Positions 3,222 through 59,400 of a stretch of 64,000 nucleotides of DNA are shown one piece after another (within the stretch, counting starts at the first letter, position 1; each line of letters opens with the position of its first letter). Under the pieces are notes generated by a model. The model saw nothing but the letters and a program-made list of their open reading frames with translations. It ran no database searches and was not told the origin of the DNA. The position numbers were made by a program, and so were the translations under genes. The stretch comes from Cycas panzhihuaensis (taxonomy: Eukaryota > Plantae > Cycadophyta): contig CM041465.1 in NCBI GenBank assembly GCA_023213395.1, positions 207,025,741-207,089,740 on the forward strand, written 5' to 3'.

Positions 3222-3571
3222 TTTTCGCATTCTTATATATCTATGCCCTTCCTTCCATATTTAACCAAAGTTGCATGTTGCTTCTTATAGATGTGTCAAT
3301 ATTTTTTTTTTTACATTTCATCTTTTTTAGGGTGATTATCTCTTTAAATCCAAATTCAGATGAAATTGTTCCCATAATCATCTCCATGTGTCTTTCCCTA
3401 TGTACTTCCTCTTTTAGAGCTTTTGCTCTCTTCCTCTAATCTGTGTTGTTAATAATGATTGGATTTATTTTATCCTTTGCTTTTTTTTTTTCTTTCATCT
3501 TTTTTTTCTCTTTATAAATATATTATAACTTATTCATCAAAAAACACATGAAATCCTTTCCCATTTTTTAC

Positions 3572-3713
<142 letters not shown>

Positions 3714-3751
3714 TATTTAAACTCTTTTCTATAGACACTATATAGATTTAC

Positions 3752-6700
3752 TATAAAAAATCATAAATAACAAAAATAATATTTACAAAAATAAAAAATA
3801 AGGCACTAGGATTAGAACAGTACCCTTAAGGTACCCCAAATTAAATTAATACCATAATGACATATTTACATCAAATATTACATATGATAGATTAGATGTG
3901 TGTTTATAATACATGATATGATAATATGTGGGACCTATTATAAAGTAACAACATCATAATAATATAATGCATACAAATGTATATTACTAATATGCCTTGA
4001 GAACCATGAACTAAGCTATTCCAACACTCCCCCCTTAATGCACATTTGGGTCATTTGAATTTGCAACACCTTATCCTTGGAAATGTCTTGAAGATGATGT
4101 CTTCAACTTGATCATTGCCTTTAATCCTATATAGATGTATTTATTGTAGGATGATGTCTTTAACTTGACTTTTATCTTCAATCTTGTAATGATATCTTTG
4201 TTATAGTATCTTTAACAAGCATAAATCTTGATTCTTCATCATGGATGGTCTAGTTTGATTTTGATATAGATCTTGTAAGTGACTATCTTTATAAACTCCT
4301 TCAAATTTTACTTTAAGCATATCTTCAAACACAACCTATTTTTCATCAACATCATCTTTAATAGGAGCATTAGAAACATCAATTTCTTGACCATGATCAT
4401 TGGTAGATTATTTATTTCTAATAATAGTAATTGGTTCTTCACTCCTAACATCTTTAATAGTAGTAGTAGTCTCATTAGTATATTCAACCATAGTCTCACT
4501 AATATATTTAACCATAGATTCTTCATATACCTTTTTATCAATATAAATAGTGCTTTCTTCATTCCCTTTACCATAATCATCAATAGTCTTATTTGTCTTT
4601 TTAATCATTTCTTATATCTCCTTAGGAGTTTATTCAAATACATCTCTTAAAATATCCAATATTTCTTAGTAGTACTAGTATGAAGAATATTAGGAAAGAT
4701 AAAATAATATGTTGAAGGAAGATTAACCTTATCTAATGCAATAAGAATTATAATAAATGCTTGTTTATCTTTCTTCTCAAGAATTTCCTTTTCCTCTTTA
4801 TCCTTACAAATATCATATCCATCAGTAACAAATTTCCACACACTTATAGCTATAAATAGGTACCTCATTTTAATTGTCCAAAAGAAATAGTTTTCTCCAT
4901 TACACTTAGGTATTAGAAGATGTAAATCCCTTAAGTAATATTCATTTACCTCATGAACGTATAAGACCATTTCATTCTCCTCCACGATTGTAAGTATACC
5001 TCCTAGTAACACCTCCATTTTATCAATCAATAAACACACCTAATATTGGTAACTTACCCATTAATCATGCTTAAAAAAATCTCTCATATCTCATGTCACT
5101 CATGTCATTGACTTTATCATATCATTTCCTTATACATTTCTCACATTGACAAATAGTCACATACAAAGAGTATCTAAAACACTTACCTCACCATCAAATT
5201 AATGCCTCATACATACCATATATATCACAAAGATCACACTTTACTTAATTGCCTTAATGCTTCAATAACATGACTCATGCCATAAACATCACCCTACAAT
5301 AGACTCATGCATACATTGTTGCAAAACAAGACCCTTTTTATAATGAAAATTCATCATAAATCAATCCACATGTCTTGTCTTTTCAAATTTGGAACCTCCT
5401 TTATAATTATTAAATGAGAAACTAAGAACCTAAAAATTCATCTCAAATGTATCTTATATTAGCCATATAATCACACAACTTTTCCAACTAAATAATATCA
5501 ACTATATCTTTGATTTTAGGACCTTATTCTACCTCCAAGTCCTTTTTAGGACCTAAATATATAATTTACAATAAATTTCCTTAAAATGGTTTATAACAGC
5601 CTTCTAGGGTTTAAATAATAGTTGGTCTAGGATCAAGGAATAGGCAAAAGAATGATGTAAAAGATACGTAAGAAAATTCTATTGAGTTACCATGCAGGGA
5701 TCTAACACAAAGACTCAACTTTGGACTAACGTTTCTCTGTGAAAATAGTATTAAAATAAGTTAAATTATATATCAAAATGATGGGCTCTAAGTCAAGATT
5801 CCAACAGTTTAAACGATTCAAAAAACTGACTCCTAGAACTCAATATATTGAGAAAAATACACAAATATCCCTTTATGATAAAATAAGAATTAAAAAAAAA
5901 GGTTTTAATACCCTTCGCTACTTAGTTGTTGGTGATATGTACCCCTCACATGACAAAGGACCAAAATGCATAATGCTCTTGGGCTTCAACTAAAATTTTA
6001 ATTTAATTAAAATTTTCTAAAACATTGTAAAAAATAAAAATTTGGTGTAATGTGAAAAATTTTGTTGTTGCACATGAATTTTCATCACATAGGTGATTGA
6101 GCACTCAAATCAATTCATAAATTAGAATTAAATCATACAAATTGAAATCTCCCCATCAATGTCAATTAAATATATTAATGATATTATTAATCCCACATTC
6201 AATATCCTCATGTGGTGACTTAATATGAACATGAAATGGTAACTTGCAAACTATCACTCAAGGTAACTTATTAAAATCAATGGGAAATTAAATAAATCAA
6301 AGGTGTCATAGATCAAAATTATATTATAAAATTAGGTGATTGAATTATTCAAATGGCATCTTCAAAAATATTATCAAAATGTGCCAAATATCACGATTAT
6401 ATAAAATCAACACAATTTTTTTGACAAATGAAAAAAATGACCAAAGTTAAATCATATAGCTTTTAGCCAATGAAATATAAAGAAATACCTTGGATTTTAG
6501 CTGTAAATATATACGGTTATGTAGTTATTCCATGATGATTGAAATCTACATACATGCAATTTATTAAACCATATATATCTCACAATGTTAGAATAATTTT
6601 TTAATGTCTCAGCTTAGCTACACACTCTATATATTTCTCTGTATATCTGGCTTTATTCCTCTTCTATGGTGGCTTTGTAATCATCTACAACCTCTCCATT

Positions 6701-7306: not shown

Positions 7307-8444
7307 AGCACTCATTACTGTATGAGATCTTTACATTTCAAGAAGATAAATAAATCTTTACAGAAAAAAGAATTGTTACAAAATGCATGTTCCTTTTTTA
7401 ATCAAACCCTTGGGGATTTCTATAAGTAACAATTATCAAAAGGAGATAATTTAAAATTCTTCCATTAAAAAGACTTCATTCTTTTACTTCTTATTATTGG
7501 TTGTTATACTCTTCACCTACAAACTAATATTTTTCTCCTTCCGTAAATAAGGAGTCATTTTTAACCTCTTGATAGTAAAAAAACATCTCCTTCAAATGCT
7601 ATATATAGATCCTTTGTAATCTATCCATTGGTTTGTAAAGAGTTTTCTATATATTAACTGAAATTTACTCCCTTCTAATAAAAAATAATAACACACATTC
7701 ATAAATATAAACTTTAACAAGGCAACTTGCATGCAATTTTTTTGGTTGTCACATGCATCAAATAGTCTACCTATTTTAACTTTTAAATGCTTATGCAAAT
7801 CTTTTAAAATGCCCCAAAATTTCTTTTTTAAAGATTTAATAAATCATCCCTAAAGGATACATTTTCAATACATTAAAATAGCTACAAATAACTTTTGAAA
7901 CCTCTCCCAAAATGGATATATTACAAGTCATAGAATAGCCATTAAAAGGTTCTAAGAAACATATAAAACTTATAAAAAATGGCTCCTAAAGGATTCAACC
8001 TTAGGCTTTAGTATCATGTTGGAAATTTTGATATCTAACTCTAATGTTGAGATGGAAATTTGATATACAACTTTGATACCATGAAGTTAGGTGAATACAT
8101 GCAAAAGCTATGACAATGTAAATAGACCTAACCAAGATATGGAATTAGACAAGGAGGTGTGTGAGAGAGCATAATAATACTTAATAAAATGAAATATGTA
8201 CAAATAAACAATGAACAAGGATATTGAAGAATGACCAAACATCATCTTATTTAAAGAATCAAGTATATATTTATAATATATTTTACCTCAATTCATGAAC
8301 CCTCAAAGTCAACCTTTATGTGTTATAAACATTCTAAGTGGCAAATAGAACTAGGTGACTATAATATAAAATTCACAAATAATTAAGAGAGTGTGAAAGG
8401 GATTTGGGATCACAACTAATATAATTAAATATTACTATCCAACA
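7307..8444 (-). mobile_element. LTR family 'F' copy 1: leader fragment, triple PBS array and LTR (8082-8444)
   Basis: LTR TGAAGTTAGG...CCAACA is homologous to 42519-42883 and to 43949 onward. Leader ~7860-8004 aligns with ~43700-43832. PBS-like 12-mers at 8005, 8038 and 8070. Confidence 0.75.
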
Positions 8445-8931
8445 CTATTATCTTCATGTAATGAAATAGAAAACATGCAATATATGGCCATGTTATCACT
8501 TTCTAATCATTATTCAAAAGTCTAATAGAATAGAAAATGATATAAACCATTTAATATATTTTATATCTATATAACATTTTATTCATTAATACTATATTTA
8601 GTGGCCACTAACTTTACTAAGCACTCAAGTATCTACTATAGTATATTATATGTATCTTAATCCATTTTATTTACCAAACATCATAAAATTCATATAAAAG
8701 AATTCTATTTAGGTCTAAACATCAATTCCCATATCTTTAAACATAAAGAGATGAAGTATAATCTTTTAACTTACTTTGATTAGCAATCCCTTTGGTGTAA
8801 GACCCTTATATTCTATAATCCATGCCAAATCCTTATTAGATTACTACCTAATATCAATCTTACTTTATCATTATAGCATCCTAACTTCTCTAACCTAGTA
8901 AGGTAAGATCATGAACACATTCTCTATTTAT

Positions 8932-10650
8932 TATTCTACTACACATAATATGTTTCTACATCTAGTAGTATGTTAAATACTATACAATATATAACTATGT
9001 AATTTGTATTAAAATCACCTCAATATCCCTTAATATCTACTACTAAATAGTATGCATATAATATTCCATATTCCATATTATATAACTATTACAAAAGTGT
9101 TCAAATCTAGATCCATATTATATAATACATATTATAGAGTTTATGTAAAAGTAACCAAATCTAATTCTACATTATATACTACATATTATGTTTCTAGAAT
9201 ACACTCACTTCCATAAATTTACTGTCTTCAATTTATCCATCATATATTGAGGCATCCACTCCCTTATTATTCCCTTTAATGTTGTAGAATGTACTATTCT
9301 ACTACACATAATATATTTATATATCTAGCATTGTGTTATATACTATACATATATAATTGTGTAGTATATAATCAAAGCACCTATGCATTCATTGGTATCT
9401 ATTACTAAATAATATATACATAGACTACTATATTATGTATAATACATTATATATATTTTATAAAATTGCTCAAATATAGAGCCATATTATATTATATATA
9501 TCACATAGTATATGTGAAAGTGGTTATACTTAATTCCACATTATATATTATATTGTATCATTATAAATTACGTTCACAATCATAGCCTTTCTATTCACTA
9601 ACTCAATAGTGTGGTAAAACCTCTTTATTCACATTTTCATAGATATTTTTGTGTGAAATTTCTCCATCACATAATATAGTAGTTTTTTTATTGGCTATTC
9701 CCATCTAATTCCCAATATTTGATTCCATATTCTATTATTTAGTCTATATACTATGTGGTATTCTACTATGCATAATATATTCATTCATCTAGTCTTGTAT
9801 TATTTACTATATAATACATAACTATATAGCATATAGTAAAAGAAATTATACATCCCATTGTATCTACTACTATATATATATATAATTCTATATTTGATAC
9901 TACATACTATATGTATTTTATAGAAGTACTAAAAACTGTAACCATCTTACATAATATGTATTACAACATTTATAGAAGAATAAATATATCTTCTTCTATA
10001 ATATATACTACATATCATATGGATATACATTGTCCTATATAATAAAAATTTCCTTGTCTATGATTTTATATTACTCTTTATATGATATATATATTCTATA
10101 CTGCATATGCTATACATTAATAATTATTTTGTTATTGTCTAATATCAATCTTGATTTATGACTATAACATCCAAATTTGTTGAACGTGGTAGAAATGATT
10201 CATAAATGTTTTCTTTCTATTAGTTAATTTAATAAGGTGTTAAAACTTCTTTATGCTCATTTTTATAAATTCCTTATCTATAATTTCTTGACCATATAGG
10301 AATCCATGCTTTCCTAGCTACTTCCATTTCATTCCCAATATTTGATTCCATATTTCACTATACATTACATAGACTATGCATTATTCTACTGCATAGAATA
10401 TATTTGTGTGATTAGTATTATATTATATACTACATATTATACAATTATACAGTATGTAGTAATAGCACTTATATAACCCATCATATATACTACCAAATAT
10501 TATATGCATATAATTATATATTCTATACTGCACACTATAGCACTTTTATAAATGTGCTCAAATCTAGATCCATATTGCACAATATGTATTATATAGTTTA
10601 TTTCAAGAATAATTGTCTTATTCCATCTTTTATACTACATATTATTTGTC
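8932..10650. repeat. Array of four degenerate ~260-bp AT-rich repeats separated by variable spacers
   Basis: Units start TATTCTACTACACATAATAT-like at ~8932, ~9295, ~9758 and ~10382. They share collinear internal motifs (ATCTAG, TATCTACTAC, TCAAATCTAGATCCATATT). Confidence 0.8.
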
Positions 10651-11609
10651 TATATTTTATTTCATATATACTATACTTTTCCATGTATATGATTTCATAT
10701 TATTCTTTATATGACTTATATATTGTCTATTACATATGGTATATACTAATATATATTCTATATTAGATGCCTAATTTTATAGTGTATGCTAAACTTATAT
10801 AGGCTTTACATACATTTATTTCCTATTGTATACTATACACTACATATACTATATATGATTATATACTATGCATATCTTATAGTGTCATACAATATGATAT
10901 GATAATATGATCTATATACTATATGGTGTTATACTCTATATATTATATACAACATTATATCCTATGTGTGCTATAGAGGGTTATATATACATATAATATA
11001 TATTATCATAAACTTTATAATATATAGTATAGAACTATATATTATATTACTCTATAGTTAATAATGTTATTCAAAACCTATCATACCTTATACCATTCAT
11101 AAGCCTAGTTGTGTAGGCTTCTAAATAGATCATTCTAATTTATGACCTCAATTAGGAAACAAATATTGATCATACTTACTGGTGTAGAAATATCACTACA
11201 ATTTTCTATTAGAAACAAACATGCAAAACATAATATATATCATTTATGTATACAATAAGCATGAAAGATACAAATATATAGTACAAAGATTTACATGGAA
11301 AACCTTTTAGCAAAAATTCATAGTAAAATAATTATGGTTACATTGATATAAAGATATATTATAATGGACTTCATATTACTTTAAATCGATTCTCAAGTGT
11401 ACATACATCGGCCTATGTTAGCCTTAATACAATATTATTTGTCATTAATTTAATCTTCATAATATTCGCACCACATTTAACATTAGTCAGTTAAGTTACC
11501 ACTTTAACATCCCCCCTTAATATAAATATAAGGTCTTGAAGTCATCATAAGGGTTGTATTATCCTTTATCTTTATCCTTGTAGATATACCCCCTCTCAAA
11601 GATAACTTC

Positions 11610-18100: not shown

Positions 18101-19022
18101 TTAATACAAGTGATAAACAAAGGAAAAAATGATGAAATTTTGGGCATAGAGGTTCAGATAACTCAATCTTTTCATAGGGTCTATGGTTTCTCACAAGATT
18201 TTAAGCATATCTAGGTATTCTTGATAGTTGAATGCTACTGAAGTTTTGTAAAGAATGATCACTTGTAGATTTAGAATGAAGCTACAAATCAAAGCAAGCC
18301 AAAAAAATAGATATAGAGTGACTCTAGGCGATATTTCTCTTGGCATAGGCAACGAAAATGAGTGAGGTTCCTTCTAATAGCTAGAGGATCCAGTTGTGAA
18401 CAGAATGAGTAGTCATGTGCAATAGTTCTAAGTAATGTGGAAAGCATAATCACTAGTTCTAAAATAGTTATCATTGGTTCCAAAAATAAAGAAATGAAAA
18501 ATAAATGTAATAAAATGAAATATTAATAAATATAAATGATTTTTCTATAGTTCAAATACCTCTAATGAATAATAATAAGAATAAACTCATAGTAAAATAA
18601 TCGTAATAGAGTGTCATGAGTTTTTTTTGTCCACCAAATGCTTGTTCTTATACCAAATATACCAAGATTTATGCTCTAATATCAAATGTTAGAAAAATAA
18701 ATCAGAGTGCAGAGTGGAGTAGGTATGCAAATATCAATCTATCTTAAGAAACATAAGTGAAAATATCATATTAATCAAGCCATTATTGAAAGTATACATC
18801 AAATCTCTAATAGTTGGTGGTGTTTAAAGACACCAGGGTTATTCACTCTAGAAAATATATAGTTGTGAGGGAGGAGGGAAACCTCCTTGACTCCCAAATT
18901 TTAAACAATAATAAAATAATACATAACTCAATTTAAAACTAAACTCACTTAACTTACCCTTAATATGTATGCGCTCACATGTGTTTAAGGTGAGAGTGGG
19001 GTGATGAACATTAATCCCACCA
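15189..19022 (-). mobile_element. Non-autonomous Ty1/Copia derivative 'C' (3.83 kb) nested in B
   Basis: 336-bp LTRs at 15189-15524 and 18687-19022. TSD TTAAG/TTGAG. Degenerate Met-PBS at 18673-18684 and PPT at ~15527-15535. Confidence 0.92.
15580..16241 (-). pseudogene. gag: Element C gag N-terminal remnant plus RNase H C-terminal remnant
   Basis: The rc of ~16241-15950 reads MAMNLSNISFLVFDGNDFQLWRTIMKVHLISNDL..ESLALLFCCIDDNAFSSVSKMTTSKSVWNILDLIYGG. 15580-15760 resembles the TKHIE..QVDI end of RNase H. Confidence 0.75.
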
Positions 19023-35005: not shown

Positions 35006-37979
35006 ATTAATATATTCCAATTGCAAAATGATTAACAGAGGGAACTGAGGAATGCTATGCTAACACAGAGGATCACTCAAGATCTATTGGGCATATATAT
35101 ATTGAACTAAATAGAAGGCATATATCAATAATATTTAAAAAAAATAAAAAATGAAACGAGGAACCTAGTTTCCGTGTGGAGAGCAAACTTCCGAGTGGGA
35201 GATCTTCCTCCACAGTGGATGGAATCCAGAACCGTCTTCTCCAGCAGATCGGTGAGCTCGCCAGAATCTCAACGAGCAGTCATATAGCTATGTTCCGTCG
35301 GACGTTTGAGCAACCAAAAACCGAAAATAGACAACCTTAGCTCTGATACCAAATGATGGAGCCGGAGGAGCAGAGCAGGACATCACGCGACTTTCATCTT
35401 GAGTACAACGGCGATTTCCGAAAGAGTGGCGGTGTTAATAAACACCAGGGAGGTATTCCCAACCCATAAATAGAGATTCGGGGAGGCGTCGGGCGCCATC
35501 ACCCTAGCTGCACAACAATTAAGGTTAGTTTGAAAAATATAAAAATAAATAGCGAATACGTACCTCACGTGAGTGGTCGGTCCGGGCGGCTACTGAACGG
35601 TCCAAGGTGCCCTAGGGGCCCTCAAAGGTGGCTTTGAGGGGCCCTAAGCGCTCTAGTGCACAAACATTGGGATTATTCCCAACAAGAGACATAGATTTCA
35701 ATCCTATGTTCCATTGATGGTTGAAGACGTACAGGATGATTGAAGAATGAGGATCAACATGCTAGTCAAACCTCATGATAGACACCAATATTCTAGTAAG
35801 TGAAGATTTGTAATGGAGAGTTGTATTAATGGAGAGTGATATATATGGGATTTGGGTTCCTTTCCTCCCTCAAGAACTTGGTCAATTTGCAAGTTGGAAG
35901 ACTTGATGCATAAGATTTTATATATAAAGAAGGATTCAAGTATGAGGTGATATTATACACCAATCTCTATACTATTGGTCTATTTGATTCTTACTTTAGT
36001 AACTTCAGATATTTGGGTGTCATATCACATCATATCAACATTCCTTAATAGAGAATTGAAGAGGATATTCATATGGCTTAAGTGGTTTAACCTCTTGGTT
36101 TAGTCAAAGGAAAATAATTGAGTTTTATGGACTAAGTGTCAATGTGAGAGAGAGTTGTATGGTTGTAGGGATTGTTAGAGTATTCCAAAAGAATCAAGCA
36201 CATATAAGGCACATCATAATTACATATGAGAGAAGGTCATATCAAGGAAGATGCAGGTTGAAGTTTGTTTAAATGGATATCAACTTGAGGACATGTTCAC
36301 TAAGCTTTAACTAAAGATTGCTACATTGATATTCATGCATATTGGGTGAGGCTATCCTTGGGAGGGGATCTATTACCAAGGATAAACCTTGGTAGCCCAC
36401 ATTTATATTAAGAGGGGATGTTAGAATATATTACCATACTGACTAATATTAATGTGTAGTGAGTTAATGCACATAATATTCTCGATGTAATATTGGATGA
36501 GCCAATAGATGTAATCACATAATGTAATATTATCAAGGCACTTTAGATCTATAAATAAAGATCAAAATCCATCTATGTAATATGTCAGATTTATCAAAAA
36601 TGTGAAATAATATCATTTTGGTGGATTTTCACTTGAGAGGCTTTCCCACCTCAAATTTAGTATCCCATGTGTATTTGTTTATGTTTGAATCTACTTTGTA
36701 TGAAAGGTTTTATTGATGTACTTGCATATAGGTGTTTCCTAACAATAAGGGTTTAATAAAATAGATAATCACTCACTCATTAGCTAGATCTTTACTTGTG
36801 AGAGATAACTATGGTTGCAATAGACTGACATCTGACTCTTTTACTTTGGTTGTGGCTTTATGCATTTGCATCCTTCAACCTTTTGACTACATCTATAATC
36901 TTAAGAGTGCATCGATGACTATTAATACATATGATCTTATTAAATTGTGACCATAACAATGACTATAATAATACAACCTATGTGAGGCAATTTCATCCAT
37001 GGACCTATGTTCTCTAATTTAGTGGCTATACTCGATAAGCAACTCAACCGATAGATAGTTGGCATTAATATCCTCTTTGTTTTCTTCCTCATCTATGGAT
37101 CTTCATCCATGCTATATCTCAATGATCTATGTTAACTTCATACATGTTATGTCCATGACTCCTCTATCTATATTCTCTCTATAGAAATAGTCTTTATAAC
37201 ATGTGTATACTAATAACTCAACTCTTTAAGGCTAGTGACCAAATGATATTATGATAAGTACATTATCCTCAACATATGATAGATAACTCTTCAAATAGAT
37301 ACAAGAAAGGTAGTCTTATGTCATCTTTTTGCTTACCTCTAAAGATCGATGCAATAGCATAAACATAAGGAAAACTCACTTGTAAAATAAATGAGACCAT
37401 AGAGGAGGCATCTAGGTTGCTTAAAAAAAGACCATTGTAGTATCATGACTACTCTTTCAATTGTCAAAGAAGATCAATCCTTAATGAAGGGTTATGCCAA
37501 TACTACCTTACAGCTTACAACCTCATCACATTGCCTAACATTCATTTTCTTTATGTGTGATCATCTACTTTGATACCATGTTAGAAACAAACATGCAAAA
37601 CATGATATAGATCACTTATAGCATGAAGGATGCAAGCACATAGCATATAGATTTACATGGGAAACCTTTCAGGTTAAACATACCACAAAATAATTATGAT
37701 TATATTTATACAAAGATATATTATAATGGACTTTGGATCTCTTTAAAAAGATCCTCAATTATACATCTGTCAACCCACATTGGCCTTAATATAATATTAT
37801 TTTTCATCACTTTAATATCCATAATATGCACACCATATTTAACATTAGTTGGTTAAGTCACCACTCCAACATTTTCCACTATCAATTTTCATAATATTAG
37901 GTGAAAAATGAGTCATCAATTAGGTTGACATTTTTATAAGTTAAAATTCTAACATATAAGGGGTTTTAATAGAATCAAT

Positions 37980-40900: not shown

Positions 40901-42460
40901 CACCATGCTAAAAAGAATGGTTTATAAAAGAGCTAGATAATAATATCCAACTCATAGTCATCCATAATTTCCTAAAAATCTTAGAAGATCCCAAATAACC
41001 ATCCTTAGAGATTAAGTTAGATAACATACAATATGGACTAATATCACCTTCACATGAAGATAGTATCATCCTTGGTGTAAGGGGAGATAATGTTTCTCTT
41101 AATCCTAATCCCATTACACTTCTTTATATGGATCCTTAAACTTTTACAATGTATAAAAAGATTTAGAATAAAAATACATGCTTTAAAAATATATTAAAAG
41201 GAAAGGAAGCTCAACAACAAAATTGGCCTCTTATTATAGTGTTAAAAAGACTAAAGGATGAGATCTTAACCATAATTAATGTTGATGTACTTCATTATGA
41301 CTTATTTGATGAAAGTATGACTAAGTATAAGGACTTAATCTTTGGATCTCTTGAGTTTATTATTCAGACATCAACTTTATACTATCTACCTTCTTTCCTG
41401 GTTTGGATATGCCCAATTTTTCTAATTATGAAGACTTAGAATGCATATATGGAGGAGTAGTAGCTATCATATGAGCCTAAGCTACTAAAAATACCTAGGT
41501 ATCTAGTTAAGGAGGCTAAGGTGATGTCATTTCTAAGGCACTAATAAACACTCCTCCTTAGGATAGAAACTACAAGGGAAGTAGTACCAACAATTTTTAA
41601 AGGAGTCCTACCCAAAGGAACTTCTTAGCGAAATAAAGCCCTATTATTCTTTAAAGTGTTAATTTCTCCTCTAATAAGCCTTTTTAGGATCATGAAATAC
41701 TTAGCCCAATATCAAGCTAATATCACTCTCACTCAAATTTTTACCCTTTTAGACTAAAGCATGAAGATGCCAAATCTATTAAAGAATAAAGACTAGGTAT
41801 TCAAACCACTTATTGATAGAGTTCATGTCAAAATAACATCCATGGTTTAGAGTCTTCCCCCATAAACTTCATCTAATCTTGATATCTTCTATCTCTTATT
41901 TATGATTTTTAATAGATATGTCTTATACAACTACATAGTGAATTCTAGAGTAGTTTATAATCTATTACCCTATGTGATCATAAGATTATTAAATCTTAAA
42001 TGTGTGAAGTTAGTTTAAAATGTTCAAGGTTTTAATATAAATATTACCACTTCAATTAGAATAATTAAAGATATGGTTGTAAATATTATTACAAATTCTT
42101 GAGTGGTAGTTATTATTGATGTAATAATTTTCGATATGAAGCCTCTCTATAAAATGCCCTTGGGTAGGCAATGGATTGTTAAATCTATGGTAGTTCCTAA
42201 TATTTATATGTCCTACATCTTATTCCTAGTAGCTAAAGATTTAATTTAATTATTGATGGAAGATTGGGCAAGTAGACACATTGATCATCTTAGAGAAGAA
42301 GCATTATATTATCCATTTGAGAAAACTAAGTTAGGGACAAATATAGTCTTCTATGAGTGTCATGACTATGTTTTGACATTGGAAGAGGAAGCTTATTACT
42401 TACAAAGTAGTGATAATGATGATGTTCAGACATTGTACTTTGACAGAAAAAATATATAAA
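37980..42460 (+). mobile_element. Non-chromoviral Gypsy (Tat/Ogre/Athila-like) 5' fragment 'J': probable long LTR, PBS, gag, protease
   Basis: Degenerate PBS TGGAAACCATACTAGGGA (40112-40129) resembles TGGCGACTCTGCTGGGGA. An ~80-bp tandem duplication lies at ~38525-38690. Gag and protease remnants follow. LTR limits are uncertain. Confidence 0.6.
40560..42250 (+). pseudogene. gag: Gypsy gag and aspartic protease remnant (element J)
   Basis: VATKLFVHILEGKAYLYYQSLTNSSIYN*DNLMNAFEATYF (~40645-40770; Retrotrans_gag-like). FYLLFM..LYNYIVNSRVVYNLLP..YKMPLGRQWI (~41885-42180; protease-like). Confidence 0.78.
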
Positions 42461-42883
42461 ATATCACAATGTTATCTTTAATACCATGTTATAAATTTGA
42501 CTTACAACTCTAACACCATGATGTTAGGTGAATGAATGTAGAAGTAATAAATAAGCAAGATGCACTTAACTAAGATATGAAATAGATAAGGAGTTAAGTA
42601 AAAGATCAATCAATTGAGACATAATAGAGATGAAATGCATATAATCATAAAGCATAGCACATATGGAAGAATAGACAAACTTTATCTTATTCAAATAAAT
42701 AGGTACATATTTATAATACAACTCACCTCAAGTAGAGAACCCTTAAAGCTAACCTTTATGGGTTGTCACACATTCCAAATGACACATATAATTAGGTAAT
42801 TATAATATGAAATTGATAATAATATAAGAGTAAGAGTGGGATTTAGGATAATAATAGATATAATTATATATTATAATATAATA
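42461..42883 (-). mobile_element. LTR family F copy 2: PBS array and LTR (42519-42883)
   Basis: LTR is homologous to 8082-8444. PBS-like units end at 42466 (partial), 42486 and 42518. Confidence 0.78.
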
Positions 42884-43064: not shown

Positions 43065-43485
43065 ATGATGAGCCACAAATATAGGCTTGATCACCTTAGA
43101 AATGTAGTAAATTTTCTACTACTACTACTACTAATAATAATAATAAAAGTCTAAAATAAAGCCCCCTAAAAGATATCATTAAACTATCAAAATTTTAGAG
43201 ATACACACACATACATATATATTCTTTAAACCCATGTGGGAGTTTTGACAATATTTCAAAACATATTTATTCTTTAACATCTAACACAACAAAGAACTTT
43301 TCATTTTTATACTAATTGTAGTAAGAGATAGTCTCTCTAAATTTTTTATAGTTTAATGATATCTTTAGGGGGGCTTTATTTTGGGTTTTTTTTTATCATC
43401 ATCATCTTCATTATTATTATTATTATTATTATAGTAAATTTACTACATTTCTAAGGTGATTAAGCATATATTTATGGCTCATCAT
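43065..43485. repeat. Long inverted repeat / fold-back (MITE-like), arms ~140-150 bp
   Basis: 43065-43203 (ATGATGAGCCACAAATAT..CACCTTAGAAATGTAGTAAAT..AAATAAAGCCCCCTAAAAGATATCATTAAACTAT) is the reverse complement of ~43335-43485. Confidence 0.85.
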
Positions 43486-43489
43486 CATA

Positions 43490-44008
43490 ATCTTCTTCTT
43501 TTCAAATAGCAACTTTAATAAAATATTTTTATGACCTTAATAAGAACCTACATATATTATAATTTTGGATGCACATGCAACAAATACATAGGTCACTTAT
43601 AAAACATTTTTCTTTAACATGATCTCCTTATTTTTTCTCAAAAGTAGTCTTAAATGTCCCATAAAATGACTCAAAAAAATTACAATAAGATAGCCCTAAA
43701 AGCATGCATTTATAATACTTCGAAATAACTCACAAATAATTTCAATATAAGCCCTAAAAATATGCCATCAATTTGTCTAAATAAAAAGAAAAAAAGGCTT
43801 TAAAAATATCCTTCCAAAGGATTAAATCTTGGCCTTTGATATCATAATGTTGGCTTTCATACCATATTGGAAATTTGATATGCAACTCTAATACCACAAT
43901 ATTAGCTCTCATATCATGTTAGAAATTTGGCATGCAACTATGGAACCATGATGTTAAGTGAATGAATACAGGAGTAAAAGATAGGTAAGATGGACCCAAT
44001 TAGGACAT
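43490..44008 (-). mobile_element. LTR family F copy 3: leader, five-PBS array and LTR start (LTR continues at 56328-56403)
   Basis: LTR begins at 43949 (TGATGTTAAGTGAATG), is split by element G (TSD GACAT) and resumes as GGAATAGATAAGG at 56328, collinear with copy 2. Confidence 0.8.
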
Positions 44009-44359
44009 TGATATAGTTCCTTTTAGTATTTCTTTGCACCTAAATAGAAAATAGAACACAAAAAAAAGAGCACAAATGAATACTAAAATTAACACTAAAA
44101 GATCACACCAAAGGGTGACAACAATTTTACATTAAAGGCTAATCCTCTTTTATATCCATAGGGCCTTAAATTAGCAAATTGTTCATTTAGAAAATGGATC
44201 TCATTGGAGAGATATTTAGATTTCGTTTCCATTGGTGGCCCTAAGTAGTTCATGTATATATTTTAATAAACAACATTAACATCTACTTCTTACTAACAAG
44301 AAGTACATTCATAAGAGTTTCACCAACCACTAGCCTAAGACAATGAGTCCCCACAGTGT

Positions 44360-47300
44360 AAGAGATGTGGATGTTACTTGATGAATTCATCTAGCTCTTA
44401 TGTCACTTCCTTAGGTCCATTACTAGTCTGTTATACTAGATGTTCAAAAATGATCCTATTCTAGAGATAGAGGTGTCTAGTTTCCAAAACATAGTTTGGG
44501 GGAATAATTAAGAGTTTTTCTTTAGTGAGAATTGGAATAGTGGTATGTGGGATAATATACTTTCCAAGGAGATTTTTAAGGCATGACACATGGAGGACAT
44601 TATGTATCTTAGTATAAGAAGAAAGGATAAGGGCATAAGCAAATTCAACAATGTGTTGGTTGACCTTATAGGGACCATAATATTACTGATTAAGTTTATG
44701 GTTTTTGCTATGGTAGAGTGATTACTACTTATAGGGTTGGATTCAAACAAAGAACATACCATCAATAATAAAGTATTGATTAGAGTAGTGATGGTCAGAA
44801 AGTTGCTTCATATAATTATGAACCATTACTAGGTTTTATTTGAGACTATTTAGGATTTTATCCATGTCTTATAATTTTTGTTGTATTGAGGTTATTTGCA
44901 AGTTAGTGGCCAATGTATGATGGGAAGGTAGGGGATAACTATATAGGACCATAAAGGGGGCATGCCAATTATGGAGTGATGTGATGAGTTATACCAATAT
45001 TCTACTAGACCTAAGTAAGAGGTCCATCAATTTTAGTATTCAAAGGCGAAACAATAGAGATATATCTCTAAAGTTCTATTAAGGACCTCAAATTAAAAAT
45101 TGGTTTAGGGATGATAAGAGGAACTCATGTTGAATGAGGTGCCAACTACATGGAAGAGTTCTTGCAAAATAGAAGACATGAATTTAGGGTCTTGATCTAA
45201 AACTATCATGGATAGAAATTTATGGAGGTAAAACATAAATTGGATATATAGCTTAGCTAAGTAAGAGGCTTGGTAGGATGTGTAGACTAGTAAAAAGTGT
45301 ATATGTTTTGTTAATCAATCAATGACTGCCTAAATAGAGTCATTTCAAACAAATGATGGAAGGCCTATGATTGGAGCTTCAAAAGGTAATCCTAGTGAGG
45401 CTAGAGGTGGAGGAGTCTACAGAGATAAAGATGGCAAGATTATATGGGCTTTTGCTAAATATTATAGTATCTAGATAAACCACAAGGAAAAGCTTGAGAC
45501 GATGCATAGAGTGATGGGTCTTGTCTACAGAGAGGGTTACTTGAGAGTTATAATGGAAGGTGATTCTATGAATGTGGTTAGGTTGATCAGAAGGGAAGTA
45601 GAGCTAGAGTGGAAGCATTTTACTGTAGTTAATGACATGAAGATGTCACTTCAAAGTAAGGATGTTCAAGTGAGTCATATTTATAGGGAAGGGAATAAGG
45701 TCGCAGATAGGTTGGCTAAGTGGGGTGTTCACTCTAGAGCTTTAAAGGTTTGGAAGGAAGACTTTGCTGAAGAGATAGTGTGTTAGGCCAGAAAGGATAT
45801 GGAAGGTTTTATTGCAATGTGGGTTATCTTGGTTGTTTTATTAGCTAAGTCATGGGCTTGTCACAGCCAATTTAATATGCCTTATTGGCAGATGGATGTA
45901 TAAGGGTTGGGGTCCCCTTTTAACCCCCATTTATTTAAACAAAATAAAAAAAATATATGGAAGGCCTATGATGAAATCCATGGCAATATCTTGTTATTTA
46001 CCATGTAGAATTTGAAGGGGTTAAAGGATCCCATGCTGAGCCTTCATGATTGCTTTATTGCATTATCAAACATCAAATTCTATTATGAAGGCCAAAATGG
46101 ATGATTTCATTTGAGGCCAATAGAAGTTAGATCAAATGCATCCATAGATTTTATTAAAATTTGAGTGAGCTACTAAAAGGGTAATATGGTACTTAGTTAA
46201 AATATAAAGAATGAAAGGAGATGATAAATAGATAAAGATTCAATTTTTGTAGAGAATATGGGTGTTGTGTAAAGTCTGATTCTTTTGATATTGAACGTTT
46301 TAGGACCACTTAACAAAATTTGGTTAGGATTGATTATCTTCTAGTAATTCTTATAACCATATTGGTTAGAGGGTAGAGATGGCTTATAATATAGGCTTAG
46401 ATGGTTTTAAAGGTAGGTAGGAGAGGGAATTAACTATAACATTTTTTTTCTCCTTTTTATAAGATATGGTAAAGTTGAACACATGTAGGTAATCAACCCA
46501 CTTGACTTGTTCTTTAAAAAGTACTAGTTAATCGAGGAGGTGGCAAAGACTATGGCCATTAGTTAAGATAGTAAATTTGGATCTAAGTAAATACTGACTC
46601 CATTTATCAATTGCATGGATGATGGCCTTCATCTCTTTTTGGTGTGCTAAATGTTAACATTTATGATCTTTAGGTTTTTAACTTTCAAAGGTAATTATAT
46701 AGAAACTTTGCTTGAGGATAACTCCTAAGCCTACTCCCAAGGGATTGTATTTCAGTTGGAATGGTTATGAAAAGTTTAGGATGGTTAATACTAGAGTGGC
46801 GGACATAAGTAATTTTAGGTAGTTGAATGAATCCTTAGCATTAAAGGACCACTAAAAGGAGTTCTTGCAAGTAAATTAGTTAGGGGGGTATTAATGGAAG
46901 CATATTTTTTTATGAATTAATGATAAAAATCTAGGAGTCCAAGGAAGGCTCAGAATTATGTTGGGTTCTTTGGGGTGGGCCATGTGGTGATGACTAAAAT
47001 TTTATCAGGGTCTACTTAGACTCCTATGGTAGACTTTAGTAGACTTTGTATTGGGAGAGAATTAGAAGGGCAATTTCTAAATATTGTAAATGATCAAATA
47101 TACGAGAACTATAGATAAGGATATTAGTAAAGAAGACAATGATAAACTTGTGAAGGTAGCGCTCAAAGATCTTATTCATTAGACCTTGAAATATGGTTGG
47201 GGCATTGCATAGCTTAATGGCATAACCTAAAATTTAAAATGCCTATGGTGTATTTGGAAAGCAATTTTATGGTGATCATTTATGGTGATAGGGATTTGAT

Positions 47301-49400
47301 AATACCTTTATTATAGGCCTAATTTTAAAAAAATGGTTGCCTTATAAATTTCATATAATATATTATTGATTCAAGGAGTAGGGAATTTGCTTTTAATAAT
47401 TAGCTTATTAAGCTTCTGATAATTAGCACAGAGTTGAAATAAATAATCTTTTTATCTTAATAAGCATAATGAAGGCTACATAAGGGATTTTACTAAGTTA
47501 TATTATCCCTATATCCATGAGATCCATTGTGATCCATTCAATTTAATTTTCTTGAAAGTAGGACTTGTAATAGGCTTATAGGCTAATGGGGCTATGAGGA
47601 TTTGAATGTTTAATGATATGGTAGAAGCCTCAGTCAAGGAGGGGTTACTTTGAAGTGGGTTAAAAATAGAATGATACTTAGTGAGTATGGTTTAGATGTC
47701 AAGGTAAATATTTGCTTGAGGCTAAATATTATTGAGACAGACTATGTATCTGACATTATTATTCAGCTATTTGCTCATTTGCTTTGAGGATAAGAGTTTA
47801 TTAGGAGGCATTTGAAGCTTATGTAGTTTGTGTATTTGTCAAAAGTGGTCTTTATGTAGAATGAATGTGTTAGTAGGGGAATTATTAGTGTTATAAGTAC
47901 CAGGGATTTAGAGCCATTAAACTCCTAGGATGGCATCCAATCCTCCTATAGAAAGGGCATAAAAATTAGAATCCAATTAGTATATACCAATTTGGATATG
48001 GAGATTTTTAATGAGACCTACATAATAGAGTTTATAGTATCCCAGTAGGAAGTAAGTGAAACCAAAATTTGGCACTATATATAAGTTCAGTTGTCTAGCC
48101 AGGGAGATGTCGTTGAAGTTGAGCAATGTTCTAATATTAATTAGGATGGTGATAGGAGTCTTCTTTAAGGTGCCTTTGATTTGGAGAGGTTTGGGGTAGG
48201 AATTAGGGGAGATGGTAAAGGATATAATAGAAAGGAAAACTTTAAGTTCTAGCATGTGGTCAATGGGGGGTTCTTTGGTTAGGTCTTTCTCAGGTTCATT
48301 ATTTGTATCAAGATCTTCATCAGCTAATGTTGTAGGATTAATGGTGAAGACTATATATTTTGCTTTATAGACTCTACCATGTTTGATAGTCTATCATTTT
48401 GCACATTAGATGTAAAGGCTAGATTCTTATTATTATTGGCTTTGTTAAGGATTACTCGCTCATATCTTATGGCTTGTTCTATTATCGGTCTTTCTATTAT
48501 GGTGTGTTCTATTATAGGATAATCCTCCTATTAAGGTCATGGTTGTTGTGCATCTACTGGTCAAGAGCAATGGTACTATGGTGTATCCCAAAGAGAGATG
48601 AATATATATTTTGTTGTGAATTCTACTTCAACTACTTTGGCCATGGTTGTGGCCCATCTCAAAGTATTCAATAAGGATATTTTTAGATGCATATGGATGT
48701 ATTCTTTGAGTCTAACTACATATATTTCAACTAAGATTAATTGATCTACTTGCATATTAAACCTATTTTATAGAGATTAGAACTTATTTATGAAAGCTTC
48801 TACTATTGAGGACTATCTTAGTAGAGTGAGTTAGTTAATGAATGTTTGGTTCTATGTGTCCTCATATTGTTTAAAGAAGATTTTATAAAACTAATCTTAA
48901 TATTAGTTCGTAGGGTACTCCTTTTGCAACTACTAAAACCATTAATGAGCCTTTATATTTGGATGGATAGATGTGAAGGCAAGTTGGTCATTAATCAACA
49001 TAGGATGAAGTTGGAAATATAAGTCTAGTTTATTAATCTATTTCCTCACATTATCTTTATTTAGATCTAGATCAAAGATAGGAATATTGATCTTATGATA
49101 GAAGGGTTGTTATAATTGATGACTTTGGAATAGAGGAGGTAGTGCTATGTGCTATTAGTTGGATGGCCCTATTGGATTTGAGGTATTACCTTAGTTGATT
49201 ATTTACTAAAGTAGCTTTGAAAAGTTTTCAAGGTTAGTTTTGATGCTTACAAAATCACTTTTGATGGCTACAAATGCTTTTTGATGTTGGTCATTGATAT
49301 TGGTAATATCTTCTCATATGGTAGTGAACTCTTCCTTGATATATGTGATATTATTTTTTATCATCTAGATTTTATCTTCTTAGTTAAGTACCGTTGATAA
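44360..49400 (-). pseudogene. pol: Element G gag-PR-RT-RH-INT-chromodomain remnant
   Basis: Protease ORF 47977-48255 (PLQIKGTLKKTPITILIN). The rc gives RYYQIPI..KIAFQ (~47240-47300), FIIVFFTNILIYS (~47105-47147), QDIAMDFII|GLP (split by the L1), LFHVVGTSFNMSSSYHP (~45110-45160) and chromodomain EHLV*..PKEVT*E (~44390-44446). Confidence 0.88.
45372..45956 (+). mobile_element. 5'-truncated L1-type LINE (RNase H domain, 3' UTR, A-rich tail)
   Basis: GASKGNPSEARGGGVYRD..IMEGDSMNVV..SHIYREGNKVADRLAKWG. A-tail at ~45937-45953. 16-bp TSD ATGGAAGGCCTATGAT at 45356-45371 and 45957-45972. Confidence 0.93.
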
Positions 49401-49578
49401 CTATTGTTACAAGCTATCATAAGAGAATGAGATTATTCAAAGTGGGATGAGATAGGAGAAGAGGTTTTCACAAAGTAGGATTACAAAGAAAGAATGGAGC
49501 ATTGAAGTAGGGATATATAGAAAGAAAGGAATTTAAAGAGGTTTGAAGGTTAGTGAAGGAATGAGAAGGGATCAATGG

Positions 49579-54737
<5,159 letters not shown>

Positions 54738-56403
54738 GAGGGGGAGGGGAGTGTCTATAGCTTGTTGAGCTCAAAAGTATAATGGATTCACCTAATATAC
54801 CAAAACAAGTGCAAGAAGCTCATAAAGATGGGGTTAGTATGTTTTAACTAAAATTTTTAGGTGGTAGAGCCTATAGGGTGCCTATATATCATTGTACCAA
54901 AAAATCTTGAGTTAAAACTACCCTCGTAGAAAATGAATAGCATAATGCATTGATCAAAATAATACATATAAGTCACTAAGGGTAATTTTGAGCCATGGAT
55001 ATTTTTTTATTTTTCTTTAAAAATTTTAAACTCAAGTCTAACTACACCAATTATTTCTAAATTTGAGAAGTATTTTGATAATTAGAATTCCTTGTAGATT
55101 AGGAGATGACTTTTTTTTTAAATCTAATCATTTGTAGTTTTTTTTTTTTTGTGGGCTAGAAATATTATTAATAGGCAATTACTTATACAATTATGTTTAG
55201 CACATATGAAGATGTTAATTAAAGGTCTATTATCTTATGTCTTTAGATCTTAAGTGGAAAGTAGAACATTCTAAGTAGGATGTTAGTAGTAACAAGGTAT
55301 CTTACTAATCACTAGATAAGGTATACTTGGTCTTGTAGGTTTATCAATAAACATCTTATGTAGAAGTTTGAGATAGGTAGCTCAGTGGCACTAACTACTA
55401 ATCACTATACTATAGGGCTTCGACAACCTATAATTTTCCTATGCTAGTAAGAATTTGGGACATAGAGGGGTCCTCTTATATACCCAAAGGTATATGGAGG
55501 CTTAATTTCATAGCCAAGTATGAAGGGGGTGGAAAATCCATATTACACTTAGAATAGATCCCTATTATTTTTATAGACTCCTAGTATAAAGTCTCTACCT
55601 AGATACTTTAGGTAACCACCATGTAGAGTTATCTACCTGGGAATGAGGAGTAGAAGGGGAAAGGATAGCCACCAAGTAAATATATCTACCATTAGATTAA
55701 TGACACAAGTACTGTATTAAAATAAAATTGAACTAAATTGAATCAAATTCAAAGGAAAGGTGTTGAGCATTACCAAGGGGGGAAATTTTCCTTTTTTTAT
55801 GACTCCTAAATACCTCTAGTTCTATTTCTCAGTCTCCTTGTGGAGAGAGTACTGAGAGAAGGTCTTTCCTTGATCTCTACTTATGGAAAAGGGATACTTA
55901 ATCTAGTTGGGAAAAAAACTTCCCTGATTTTCACCTATTATGTAGCTCCCCTTAGTTATGTAGCCAAGCTTTGATACCACTTGATATGGTTACTCCTAGT
56001 ATTTTATCACATCTAAATAAAAAATTAAAAATAAGACACAAAAAATGAGAATAAATAAACACTAAATTGAACATCAAAAGATTACACTAAAGGGCAATAG
56101 CAATTTCACATTTAAAATTAATCTTATTTTATATCCATAGAGTTTTAAATAGGCAAGTTATTTGTTTAGTAAATAAATCTTATTGGAAAGACATTTAGTC
56201 TTTGTTTCCATTAGTGACCCTAAGTAGCCCACACATAGATTTTAATGGACAACATTAATATTTTCTTCTTACTAATGAGTACATTCATATGAGTTCTGCC
56301 AACCACTAGTGATTATATAACAGACATGGAATAGATAAGGGAGTGAGTGAAAGATTAATTAATTGAAATATAATATAGATGATATATATATACACATGAA
56401 GTA

Positions 56404-59400
56404 TGTTATATAGTTGCCTCTAATAGTAGGACTTGGCTACTAGTACATGAGACCAAGGGACTTGATTGTTAATGCTAGCTATTAATATTTATGTATGGGT
56501 CACTTGCTTCCATTATTAGAATGTATGCCACTAACACCTATTAATGGAAATTCATAAGGAAATCATTTGTTTTCTTTATAAGGCCTCATCAAATATAGAG
56601 GGATTATTTATTGTGTATTGAATATCTTATTTGTAGCATACTATAGTATTACTTTGGTATCCTTTTGATGCTCTTTAAGTATGTAATAAACTATTTTTTA
56701 TCAATAAAGATTGATTTTCTATATTATTATTCAAGTCATTATGCCCTTTAAGTTATTTTAGTCAATTACATATATGGAAACTAGGGTATACCTGCTCTAA
56801 GTGGCATCAGAGCTTAACTCAAAGGACCGTTCTATAGTAGCAAGGAAATAATAGAGCAAACATAAAGACAAAATCAAGGTAAAAGAAGTGGAAATTTAGG
56901 TAGTTTAGTAGGATTTTTTTCCACCTTTAGTAATATTTATAACTCTTTCCTTTTTACAAATTTCTTACTTCCTATCATAAGATATTTTTCTATATTTTGT
57001 ACGTAGTGGTCTAGGTAAACACCCTATTTTAGGGGTTTTAAAATATCCATAAGAGAGTTATTGTTATTAGCTAGTCATACTTTGGGATCAGCTAGCACAT
57101 GAAGTGAGGTAATCTATTTACTAATACTCAAGCTTTAAGCAGTGCCTATATATAAAATTGAGTCTCTTTATACCTTCAGGTATATAAGAAGACCCTTGTC
57201 TTTTTTCTTTTCTTTGAAGCCTAGAATATGTAAATAGTTATTCGTCTTCCACCTATAGTACATTAGTTAGTAGTTAGTTCTAAGAAGACACTCTTCACAA
57301 ATACCTTAGACATGGATAATACATCTATACGTATGTTAACCCTTTATAATTAGTACCTTGAGATATTGGCCTATTGTTCTTGACAATTAAGAAGTTTATA
57401 GGAGAGCCTATAGATTAGGCATTCCTTGAGTCAAACATTTATCTAGAAATTAGTTGTTCAAACTCTAGTTTAGGCCTGTAATAACTACTAAAATTGTTCT
57501 TCATTGACATACTATTATCAAAACCCTTACCAATAAATTTTACAATCAAAACCCCCATCAATAGAATATAAATTAAGAAAAAAAAAAAAAGAAAAAACTG
57601 GAGACTATAGGCTCATCTCTCTAAATAGTCACTTCTATAAATATCAATTTATTGTAAAGGAAAGCTTTACCAATGTAATGTATATAAAAGGAAAGAAATA
57701 AAAGTTCAAAAAGTTTAAATTTATCCTTATTTTTCATTTACATCATTTTAATAAGAGCATTATGCTATTTATTTTACATTAGGTTAGTTTTAATCACCAT
57801 ATTCAGGGAAAAATAACATATATATACCCCTTGGTCCCCATGACTAAATTTTAGTATATAATCTTACCTACCTCATCTTGATGAATATATAATTTTTGTC
57901 TTACTAAACTAAGTGAGACTATTACATAATTTTAGGGGAAAATAGTCTATAAACAACCTATATAGTTTTTGTAATTAAGGGGTTAATAGGATATAGATAT
58001 ACCCCCACTCCTCTTATCCTTCTACATTATTCCCTAACTCTTTAGGATTGTTCTTTCTATCTATTTCCTTTTTTCTTCAAAACCCCTTCTTCTTACCTTG
58101 TCCCTCCTCCTCGAATATGTTTCTATTAACTCATCTTAATAACTAATATCTACTTACTCCTACTCAAGTAGATCAAATTTCAACATTAGAAACCCAATAC
58201 AACTCCTTAACTAGTAATATCATAAAACTCTCAGATGGCATTGCAAAGATTTCCATGTAAATATCTAATATGTCCTCTTCCCTTAATTTAACTAGTAGCT
58301 CTCCACCACCTCCACCTCTCCCACACATGCACCTCCCATGTCAACAACCACTATACCACAAAATAAACAATCCTAACATTTAACTTAAACCTTAATAAGG
58401 ACACCACATAAAGTTGGATCAATAAGTTAAAGTCACACTTCTCTCTCATGCCCATGTCATTAGATGAAAAATCAACATTTGCTTTCATACACCTTGAAGG
58501 CAAAGTACACCACTAGTTTGGTTGGTCTAAACATGCAAATCCCACCAAACAAACATAGAACTTGTTTTGTAAATGTTTTTTCAAATAGTATGATGACATG
58601 TGAAATCAAGTTGTCTTTACTAAACTTACCTATCTTAAATAGATAACTTCAATTAAAGCATATATTAAAGAGTTTCATGCCCTATAGAACCAAGTCTCTT
58701 AAACCCTTGATCAATGTATAATCATTGATTTATATGTATCTAGCCTTAAGAACCACATCCAAATGTGCCTTAAGGTGGTTTGTCTAATGACTCTCAAAGA
58801 AGACATATCCATGGAAACATAAGTTAAAGTAGAGTTCTTGGAAAAACTACCAACTATTTTCTATTGAGATCCTACCTAGTATTAATGCCTTAATCTTATG
58901 AATCAAAATTATCAAAGTTAATACATAGATGATTTATAACACCTAAAAACAAAACATCCTTTAGAGTATACACCCATAGTAGAAGTAAACAACTATTGAG
59001 AGGCTAATATATACATCAAGTACATAGAGAAGTGGACATTTAATCATGGAAAGGCATGCAAAGCTAAGAGAATGGCCTTTACAATTGATCCTAACCTCCT
59101 TATACTAAAAGATTTAAACTATAGGCATGAGCCAAGTGATGACCCCCACTCTTAAGAATTCTTCCTTAACCCTAAACCAAATGTATCTTTGGTAACTTTT
59201 TCCTCTATGTCTTACCTTAAACCCCTTAGATTCAAAGGTACACTTTAAAAAATCCCCATTACTATCCTAATTAAATATCATGTATAACTCAACTTCATTG
59301 ATATATCATTAGCCAAATAAATTAACCTATATAATGTCACTAAAGCTAGATTCACCTACTCCTTACTAGGATACTATATACTTTAATATGTAAGAAATCT

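What the first reader, a model, noticed from the sequence alone, without database searches (positions are those of the whole stretch)
43833..43948. Repeat-spacer micro-array of five tRNA-iMet primer-binding sites with LTR-terminus-like spacers (52-bp period)
Seen in sequence: next to the family-F LTR lie five 12-nt PBS-like copies (consensus ~GCTCTGATACCA, rc TGGTATCAGAGC) at 43833, 43853, 43885, 43905 and 43937. They alternate with an 8-nt spacer (TAATGTTG / CAATATTA, close to the LTR's own edge TGATGTTA) and a 20-nt spacer (T[A/G]TT[G/A]GAAATTTG..ATGCA, which looks like a TGTT LTR end). On the element strand each PBS therefore follows its own '...CA'-like mini LTR end. Established: LTR elements normally have one PBS directly after U5. 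Inference: repeated priming or strand-transfer slippage stacked U5-PBS junctions, possibly from two different LTR ends. The stack could give a non-autonomous element several priming and integrase sites, or act as a decoy for 3' tRNA fragments.
Basis: partly seen in the sequence, partly recalled or inferred. Interest (0 to 1): 0.8.

Follow-up and report, generated by a model that had tools for sequence, protein, structure and literature searches.

The report
Stacked primer sites behind retrotransposon LTR
An old, broken jumping gene in a probably plant genome carries five decayed copies of the site where its copying starts instead of one; relatives carry two or three, and the stack likely grew because copying can start at a later copy, as the terminal repeats of an unrelated family indicate.

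Summary
The array is real. Four PBS-like units have 2-3 mismatches and the LTR-proximal one has 4; no chain of four arose in 200 shuffles. It is a family trait: two other family-F LTR edges in the window and two bridging public contigs carry 2-3 PBS, and none seen carries five. Both spacers trace to one family spacer of about 22 nt ending in an att-like CA, so 'two different LTR ends' is unsupported. PBS stacks recur elsewhere: 108 metagenome loci in 55 groups. In one unrelated family, a full element (TSD CAAGT) and a solo LTR (TSD TGTCC) hold two PBS inside the LTR. That implies priming at a downstream PBS and integration at a spacer CA. For this locus the mechanism is inferred only. The neighbouring LTR carries an equally diverged copy of the 52-bp block, but lacks a PPT and runs 10 nt past the CA. 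A second window family with two PBS shows no extension. The tRF decoy idea is untested. This scan noted similar stacks in three other genomes; nine paper searches found no description in plants.

The parts
43937..43948 (-). PBS copy 1 (LTR-proximal, 4 mismatches), 3 nt after the LTR's terminal CA
43917..43936 (-). 20-nt spacer ending flush in an att-like CTAACA
43905..43916 (-). PBS copy 2 (2 mismatches)
43897..43904 (-). 8-nt spacer (decayed att 5-mer plus 3 nt)
43885..43896 (-). PBS copy 3 (2 mismatches)
43865..43884 (-). 20-nt spacer, second copy (16 of 20 identical to the first)
43853..43864 (-). PBS copy 4 (2 mismatches)
43845..43852 (-). 8-nt spacer, second copy (att 5-mer plus 3 nt)
43833..43844 (-). 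PBS copy 5 (distal, 3 mismatches), followed by the family leader
43952..44008 (-). U5 end of family-F 5' LTR (copy F1), cut by nested element G
56328..56403 (-). continuation of the F1 LTR beyond element G; broken again at 56404 by element H
43505..43832 (-). family-F non-coding leader, homologous to 7687-8004 of copy F3
   Evidence: score 126 against shuffle maximum 88, 0 of 300
42522..42883 (-). second family-F LTR (F2): either the extended 3' LTR of F1 or the 5' LTR of a truncated nested copy; no PPT on its U3 side
42460..42518 (-). F2 stack: PBS, 20 nt, PBS, 8 nt, first 7 nt of a third PBS, then unrelated pol-like DNA
8005..8444 (-). third family-F copy (F3): LTR 8085-8444 and stack 8005-8081 (two PBS plus a broken middle one, two longer spacers, no 8-nt spacer)
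44009..56322 (-). nested element G with 5-bp TSD GACAT inside the F1 LTR; LTR pair 252 of 323 identical
43065..43485 (.). palindromic MITE-like insertion in the F1 internal region

Best explanation
The five units are decayed initiator-Met tRNA primer-binding sites stacked behind the 5' LTR of an old LTR retrotransposon whose relatives carry two or three, and the stack likely grew because every 'att-like CA + PBS' unit can serve as a primer and integration end. Step 1 (shown for family F): the family carries a repeated unit, PBS plus one spacer that ends in an LTR-like terminus, in variable number; the 8- and 20-nt spacers are shortened forms of it. Step 2 (read from TSD-bounded LTRs in an unrelated family; inferred for F): when the tRNA primes at a downstream copy, the strong-stop DNA takes the upstream PBS copies into both LTRs, and integrase uses the spacer's CA. 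Step 3 (inferred): suppose strong-stop DNA primed at PBS3 of a 3-PBS RNA finishes on a co-packaged RNA primed at PBS1. Plus-strand transfer would then give five PBS with a 52-bp period at the 5' end, and a 3' LTR ending PBS-20-PBS-att. That is close to what F1 and F2 show. The copy is now dead, and no present function is implied.
For: All 3 F edges in the window are stacked. Two X1 contigs bridging leader to LTR carry 2 and 3 PBS with a 22-nt spacer (tables 5 and 5c). 163 contigs from three runs labelled organisms A, B and D were laid, 140 of them under 90% alike, so mostly paralogues. The two 52-mers of F1 and the one at F2 are about equidistant (39, 39 and 41 of 52), as diverged as the F1-F2 LTRs (104 of 136), so the duplication is about as old as the insertion. 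F1-F2 show 9 transversions against 17 and 20 to F3 (Fisher p 0.10 and 0.03). L068/L069 form one element: PPT before the 3' LTR, a 654-bp 3' LTR, LTRs 649 of 663 alike and both holding two PBS plus spacers, a third PBS behind the 5' LTR, TSD CAAGT. Its flanks are the TIR and NB-ARC halves of one gene. L074 is a solo LTR with two PBS inside and TSD TGTCC. Of 28 metagenome groups with a CA before the first PBS, 22 have a spacer CA and 17 share the att 6-mer; the background is 25%.
Against: F2 has no C-rich PPT tract on its U3 side, whereas 6 of 7 other LTR pairs printed show one (read by eye). F2 runs 10 nt past the CA into a third PBS (9 of 10 match, chance about 6e-5), so it is not a clean integrase end. 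No TSD can be checked because F1's far end is not in the window. The DNA between the MITE and F2 is not homologous to F3's internal region (292 of 300 shuffles score as high). Window family D has two PBS but no PBS extension at its 3' LTR (best 5 mismatches), so there the proximal site primed. The 52-mer identity has a wide interval (61-86%). Plain tandem duplication across a PBS would also copy the upstream CA, so 22 of 28 does not separate the models. The second, partial LTR copy with two PBS in L002 has no TSD.
Confidence: 0.58

Rival explanations
1. The stack is a neutral tandem repeat. An ancestral leader duplication spread with the family and changed in number by DNA-level slippage or unequal exchange, while only the proximal PBS primed. 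F2 is the 5' LTR of a second, nested copy later cut by a deletion.
For: F2 lacks a PPT and breaks inside PBS3. Family D shows no LTR extension. Several metagenome stacks are plain tandem repeats, and 27 of 55 groups have no CA before the first PBS.
Against: The L068/L069 and L074 boundaries imply distal priming in one family. The 52-bp blocks are no younger than the LTR pair. The F2 stack ends within 10 nt of where the priming model predicts.
Confidence: 0.3
2. The array is a chimera of LTR ends from two different families, joined by template switching at the shared PBS.
Against: There is little similarity beyond the generic first 8-9 nt; the best is 13 of 20. Contig spacers link the 8- and 20-nt forms to one 22-nt spacer. 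F3's distal long spacer matches F's own U3 terminus over 7 nt.
Confidence: 0.07
3. The extra PBS copies were selected as decoys for 3' tRNA fragments, or to outcompete autonomous RNAs for primer tRNA.
For: Two or more copies persist across family members and three organism labels. That tRNA fragments target PBS is recalled knowledge; one search gave a search listing only.
Against: There are no data on small RNAs or expression. Extra sites on the same RNA would add targets rather than divert them (inference). All copies are decayed alike.
Confidence: 0.05

Closest known systems
Canonical Ty1/copia and chromovirus U5-PBS junction with tRNA-iMet (recalled; Met PBS association with these groups seen in passages of bioRxiv 10.64898/2026.03.01.708851)
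   Same: LTR ends in CA, 0-3 nt gap, 12-nt match to the tRNA-iMet 3' end.
   Different: 2-5 junctions in tandem; in the L068 family the LTR end has moved to a downstream junction.
HIV-1 MAL-type 23-nt insertion (PMC3185550, passages read)
   Same: Natural partial duplication of the PBS just downstream of it, inherited by a lineage (14% of isolates).
   Different: Partial and single; the passages read do not describe a preceding att mimic or its use as a primer site.
Engineered two-PBS HIV vectors with frequent dual initiation (Voronin and Pathak 2004; title only, seen in the reference list of PMC3902901; the paper is not held)
   Same: By its title, a second PBS can be primed.
   Different: Artificial constructs; what happens to the LTR end was not seen.
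TRIMs and tandem-array TRIMs (bioRxiv 10.64898/2026.03.01.708851, passages)
   Same: Non-coding element, PBS-Met, an LTR followed by PBS about 1 kb from another LTR.
   Different: The repeat unit there is LTR plus internal region, not a 20-52 bp junction. 'Second PBS' and 'multiple PBS' have 0 occurrences in its main text; its supplements were not seen.

Membership tests
LTR retrotransposon | LTR with TG...CA termini | tested here: met
   F3 LTR 8085-8444 starts TGTTGG and ends AACT (decayed); F1 and F2 end AACA
LTR retrotransposon | PBS 0-3 nt after the 5' LTR | tested here: met
   PBS 3 nt after the terminus in 3 of 3 copies
LTR retrotransposon | PPT before the 3' LTR | tested here: inconclusive
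   none before F2, but F2 may not be a 3' LTR; no other candidate in the window
LTR retrotransposon | 5-bp TSD | not testable with these tools
   F1's U3 end is not in the window; no genome held
Ty1/copia versus Ty3/gypsy | gag-pol domain order | tested here: inconclusive
   no ORF of 90 aa or more between F1 and F2; superfamily not assigned
TRIM / tandem-array TRIM | short non-coding internal region between paired LTRs, with PBS and PPT | tested here: inconclusive
   about 640 bp without the MITE and no ORF, but no PPT and pairing of F1 with F2 unproven
TRIM / tandem-array TRIM | repeated LTR-internal units | tested here: not met
   beyond F2's stack lies unrelated pol-like DNA, not a second leader
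CRISPR-like acquired repeat-spacer array | unique spacers of foreign origin | tested here: not met
   spacers are copies of each other (16 of 20) and of one family spacer

The most novel reading that the evidence does not exclude
LTR retrotransposons have a recurrent, undescribed ratchet. Tandem 'att + PBS' modules let the primer site walk downstream, each step moving former leader DNA into both LTRs, and switching between co-packaged RNAs primed at different modules multiplies them. The five-site array with its 52-bp echo on the neighbouring LTR is a fossil of one such event.
Probability: 0.4. Interest if true: 0.65.

Novelty: new variant of a known kind. Interest (0 to 1): 0.45.

Why it matters
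If it is general, the LTR boundary is not fixed. Tandem att+PBS modules would let LTRs gain sequence at U5 in discrete steps, which is a route to LTR length evolution. It would also mislead PBS-anchored annotation and strong-stop cDNA mapping, which assume one PBS. The claim is directly testable in assembled genomes from TSD-bounded LTR ends. The locus itself is an old dead copy with no likely present function.

Tried and rejected
No whole genome is held, so no family census could be made.

Anti-PBS hairpin: the long spacer begins with a 6-8 nt complement of the PBS and can fold on it. Against 300 spacer shuffles it was not significant in 4 of 4 F units (30-176 as stable; 20-200 with an undecayed PBS). 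Among 23 metagenome group representatives, 2 spacers against 3 control tails reached p of 0.05 or less. Rejected as general. The L020/L068 family spacer does pair strongly (0 of 200).

Spacer from another family's LTR end: rejected. No 3' LTR for F3 and no U3 half for F1 was found in the window (nhmmer). None of the 108 loci matches family F.

The RAD-seq run X10 laid 0 reads, which is no test. No RNA holder was listed. The viral scan gave 3 loci with stacked PBS words, not pursued. The DNA between the two F LTRs was not examined with reads.

Paper searches (listings) found no description of stacked PBS or LTR extension in plant retrotransposons. Subscription journals are mostly absent from the library, and bioRxiv supplements were not seen. 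PMC1635307 (two PBS in Drosophila gypsy) was seen as a listing only.

Full report
Observation. Mismatches to the tRNA-iMet PBS (motif from the finding; a perfect copy lies at 35340) are 3, 2, 2, 2 and 4; the LTR-proximal copy is the most decayed. TRF reports period 52, score 132. One chain of four PBS-like words occurs in the window, against 0 of 200 shuffles. The window is AT-rich DNA of nested LTR elements, with a Copia gag/RT at about 28-32 kb. A plant host is inferred; no genome is held.

Anatomy. The element runs on the minus strand. Its LTR (F1) starts at 43952 and is cut after 57 bp by element G (44009-56322, TSD GACAT, LTR pair 252 of 323). It resumes at 56328 and is cut again at 56404 by element H; the rest is not in the window. 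Behind the stack lie about 330 bp of leader shared with another copy (F3), a MITE-like palindrome, 180 bp without homology to F3, and a second family LTR (F2, 42522-42883). F2 is followed by PBS, 20 nt, PBS, 8 nt and seven bases of a third PBS, then by pol-like DNA. That DNA reads like a Tat-type protease region and G like a chromovirus; both labels come from recalled motifs read by eye in translations. F3 (8005-8444) has two PBS, a broken middle one and two long spacers. So 3 of 3 family-F edges in the window are stacked.

Family level. I laid 4 of the 24 listed runs on 43801-44035. Three contig sets, about half read, gave 44, 63 and 56 contigs, 140 of 163 under 90% alike. The fourth run, RAD reads, gave none. 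Depth peaks on leader plus distal PBS and on long spacer plus PBS. Of three X1 contigs with listed replacement letters, two bridge leader to LTR edge, with 2 and 3 PBS; the third shows a further arrangement. In the two bridging contigs the long spacer is 22 nt, starts with the same letters as the window's 8-nt spacer and resembles the 20-nt spacer. None of the 24 of 168 pieces shown spans the stretch; contigs break at repeats, so this is no census. I read 2-3 as the family norm, five as an expansion, and both spacers as shortened forms of one family spacer. Against 8 other-family LTR edges the 20-nt spacers score 2-13 of 20, the better ones mainly in a generic first 8-9 nt. A second donor family is therefore unsupported.

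Elsewhere. One exact-pattern scan of metagenome contigs stopped at 35 of 64 parts and gave 108 loci with two or more PBS words. They fall into 55 groups, with one representative scored per group. In 28 groups a CA lies 0-3 nt before the first PBS (background 25%); 22 of these have a spacer CA and 17 share the att 6-mer. The other 27 include non-LTR repeats. Of 8 ORFs scanned, three downstream of a stack are Copia gag (L006, L007, L016), and a fourth (L027) lies antisense upstream. A simple duplication would also copy the CA, so these counts show recurrence, not mechanism.

Mechanism evidence. L068 and L069 are the two ends of one element with stop-rich internal DNA where seen. The LTRs are 649 of 663 alike and each includes two PBS and two spacers, ending at the spacer's CA. 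A third PBS follows the 5' LTR, a PPT precedes the 3' LTR, the TSD is CAAGT, and the flanks are the TIR and NB-ARC halves of one gene. L074 is a solo LTR of the same family with two internal PBS and TSD TGTCC. Five other 5' ends printed for that family have two PBS, so the number varies. Since the primer position defines the U5 end (established retroviral biology, recalled), these copies were primed at the third PBS and integrated at a spacer att. The pattern only finds two or more PBS, so LTRs with one internal PBS were invisible.

Applying this to the locus (inference). Take strong-stop DNA primed at PBS3 of a three-site RNA and completed on a partner RNA primed at PBS1. It would yield five sites with a 52-bp period and a 3' LTR ending PBS-20-PBS-att. 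In favour, the three 52-mers are about equidistant (39, 39, 41 of 52) and match F1-F2 LTR divergence (104 of 136); F1 and F2 share the 20/8 pattern and have fewer transversions than either has with F3. Against, F2 has no PPT (6 of 7 other pairs do, by eye) and runs 10 nt past the CA (chance about 6e-5), and no TSD can be tested. The identity interval is wide (61-86%), and family D in the same window has two PBS without 3' extension. F2 may instead be a truncated nested 5' LTR. An anti-PBS hairpin was tested and not supported.

Known work. The nearest cases are the partial PBS duplication of HIV-1 MAL (PMC3185550, passages), engineered two-PBS vectors (Voronin and Pathak 2004, title only) and tandem TRIMs (bioRxiv 10.64898/2026.03.01.708851, passages). 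Nine searches found no description of stacked PBS with LTR extension in plants. This scan noted similar stacks in three other genomes (unchecked AI notes, seen after my own result). Look-ups by place, by sequence and a second word set gave nothing.

Verdict. The stack is real, inherited and recurrent: a new variant of the LTR-PBS junction. Distal priming is indicated by two insertions of one unrelated family and inferred, not shown, for this locus. The copy itself is dead. Interest 0.45.

Noticed in passing
window 18644-18684: A second, unrelated family (D) has two PBS with a 17-nt spacer behind its 5' LTR; its 3' LTR at about 15189 carries no PBS extension.
   Followed up: yes
L068:928 to L069:1581: Element with PBS-containing LTRs inserted into a TIR-NB-ARC gene (TSD CAAGT); its spacer pairs strongly with the preceding PBS (0 of 200 shuffles, tested on L020).
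   Followed up: yes
L094:116-275: Seven PBS-like copies with 9-nt att spacers followed directly by a PPT-like tract and an LTR-like start: a possible minimal element whose inside is only a PBS stack.
   Followed up: no
L006, L004, L044, L100 spacers: Copia-type spacers holding an inverted plus a direct copy of the LTR end (fold-back layout), suggesting snap-back template switching.
   Followed up: partly
L098, L054, L011, L048 spacers: Spacers resemble the family-F 20-nt spacer over about 11 nt; L038, of the L098 group, continues into a gag start that reads Tork-like by a recalled motif. Homology or convergence unresolved.
   Followed up: no
L001/L002:1124-1288: Partial LTR copy with two PBS and no TSD, possibly a captured strong-stop cDNA primed distally.
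   Followed up: partly
window 43065-43485: MITE-like palindrome, arms 139 of 167 complementary, single copy in the window.
   Followed up: partly
window 45475-45783: RVT_3 (RNase H-like) ORF on the plus strand inside minus-strand element G: a nested insertion of another type.
   Followed up: partly
window 52245-53636 and 3400-3830: Long TA-rich microsatellite tracts, the larger about 1.4 kb.
   Followed up: no
window 8924-10757: Degenerate tandem repeats with spacings of 369-628 bp, 62-74% alike.
   Followed up: no
L109, L111: Viral-collection contigs with 2 and 4 adjacent PBS words; L109 begins exactly at the PBS.
   Followed up: no
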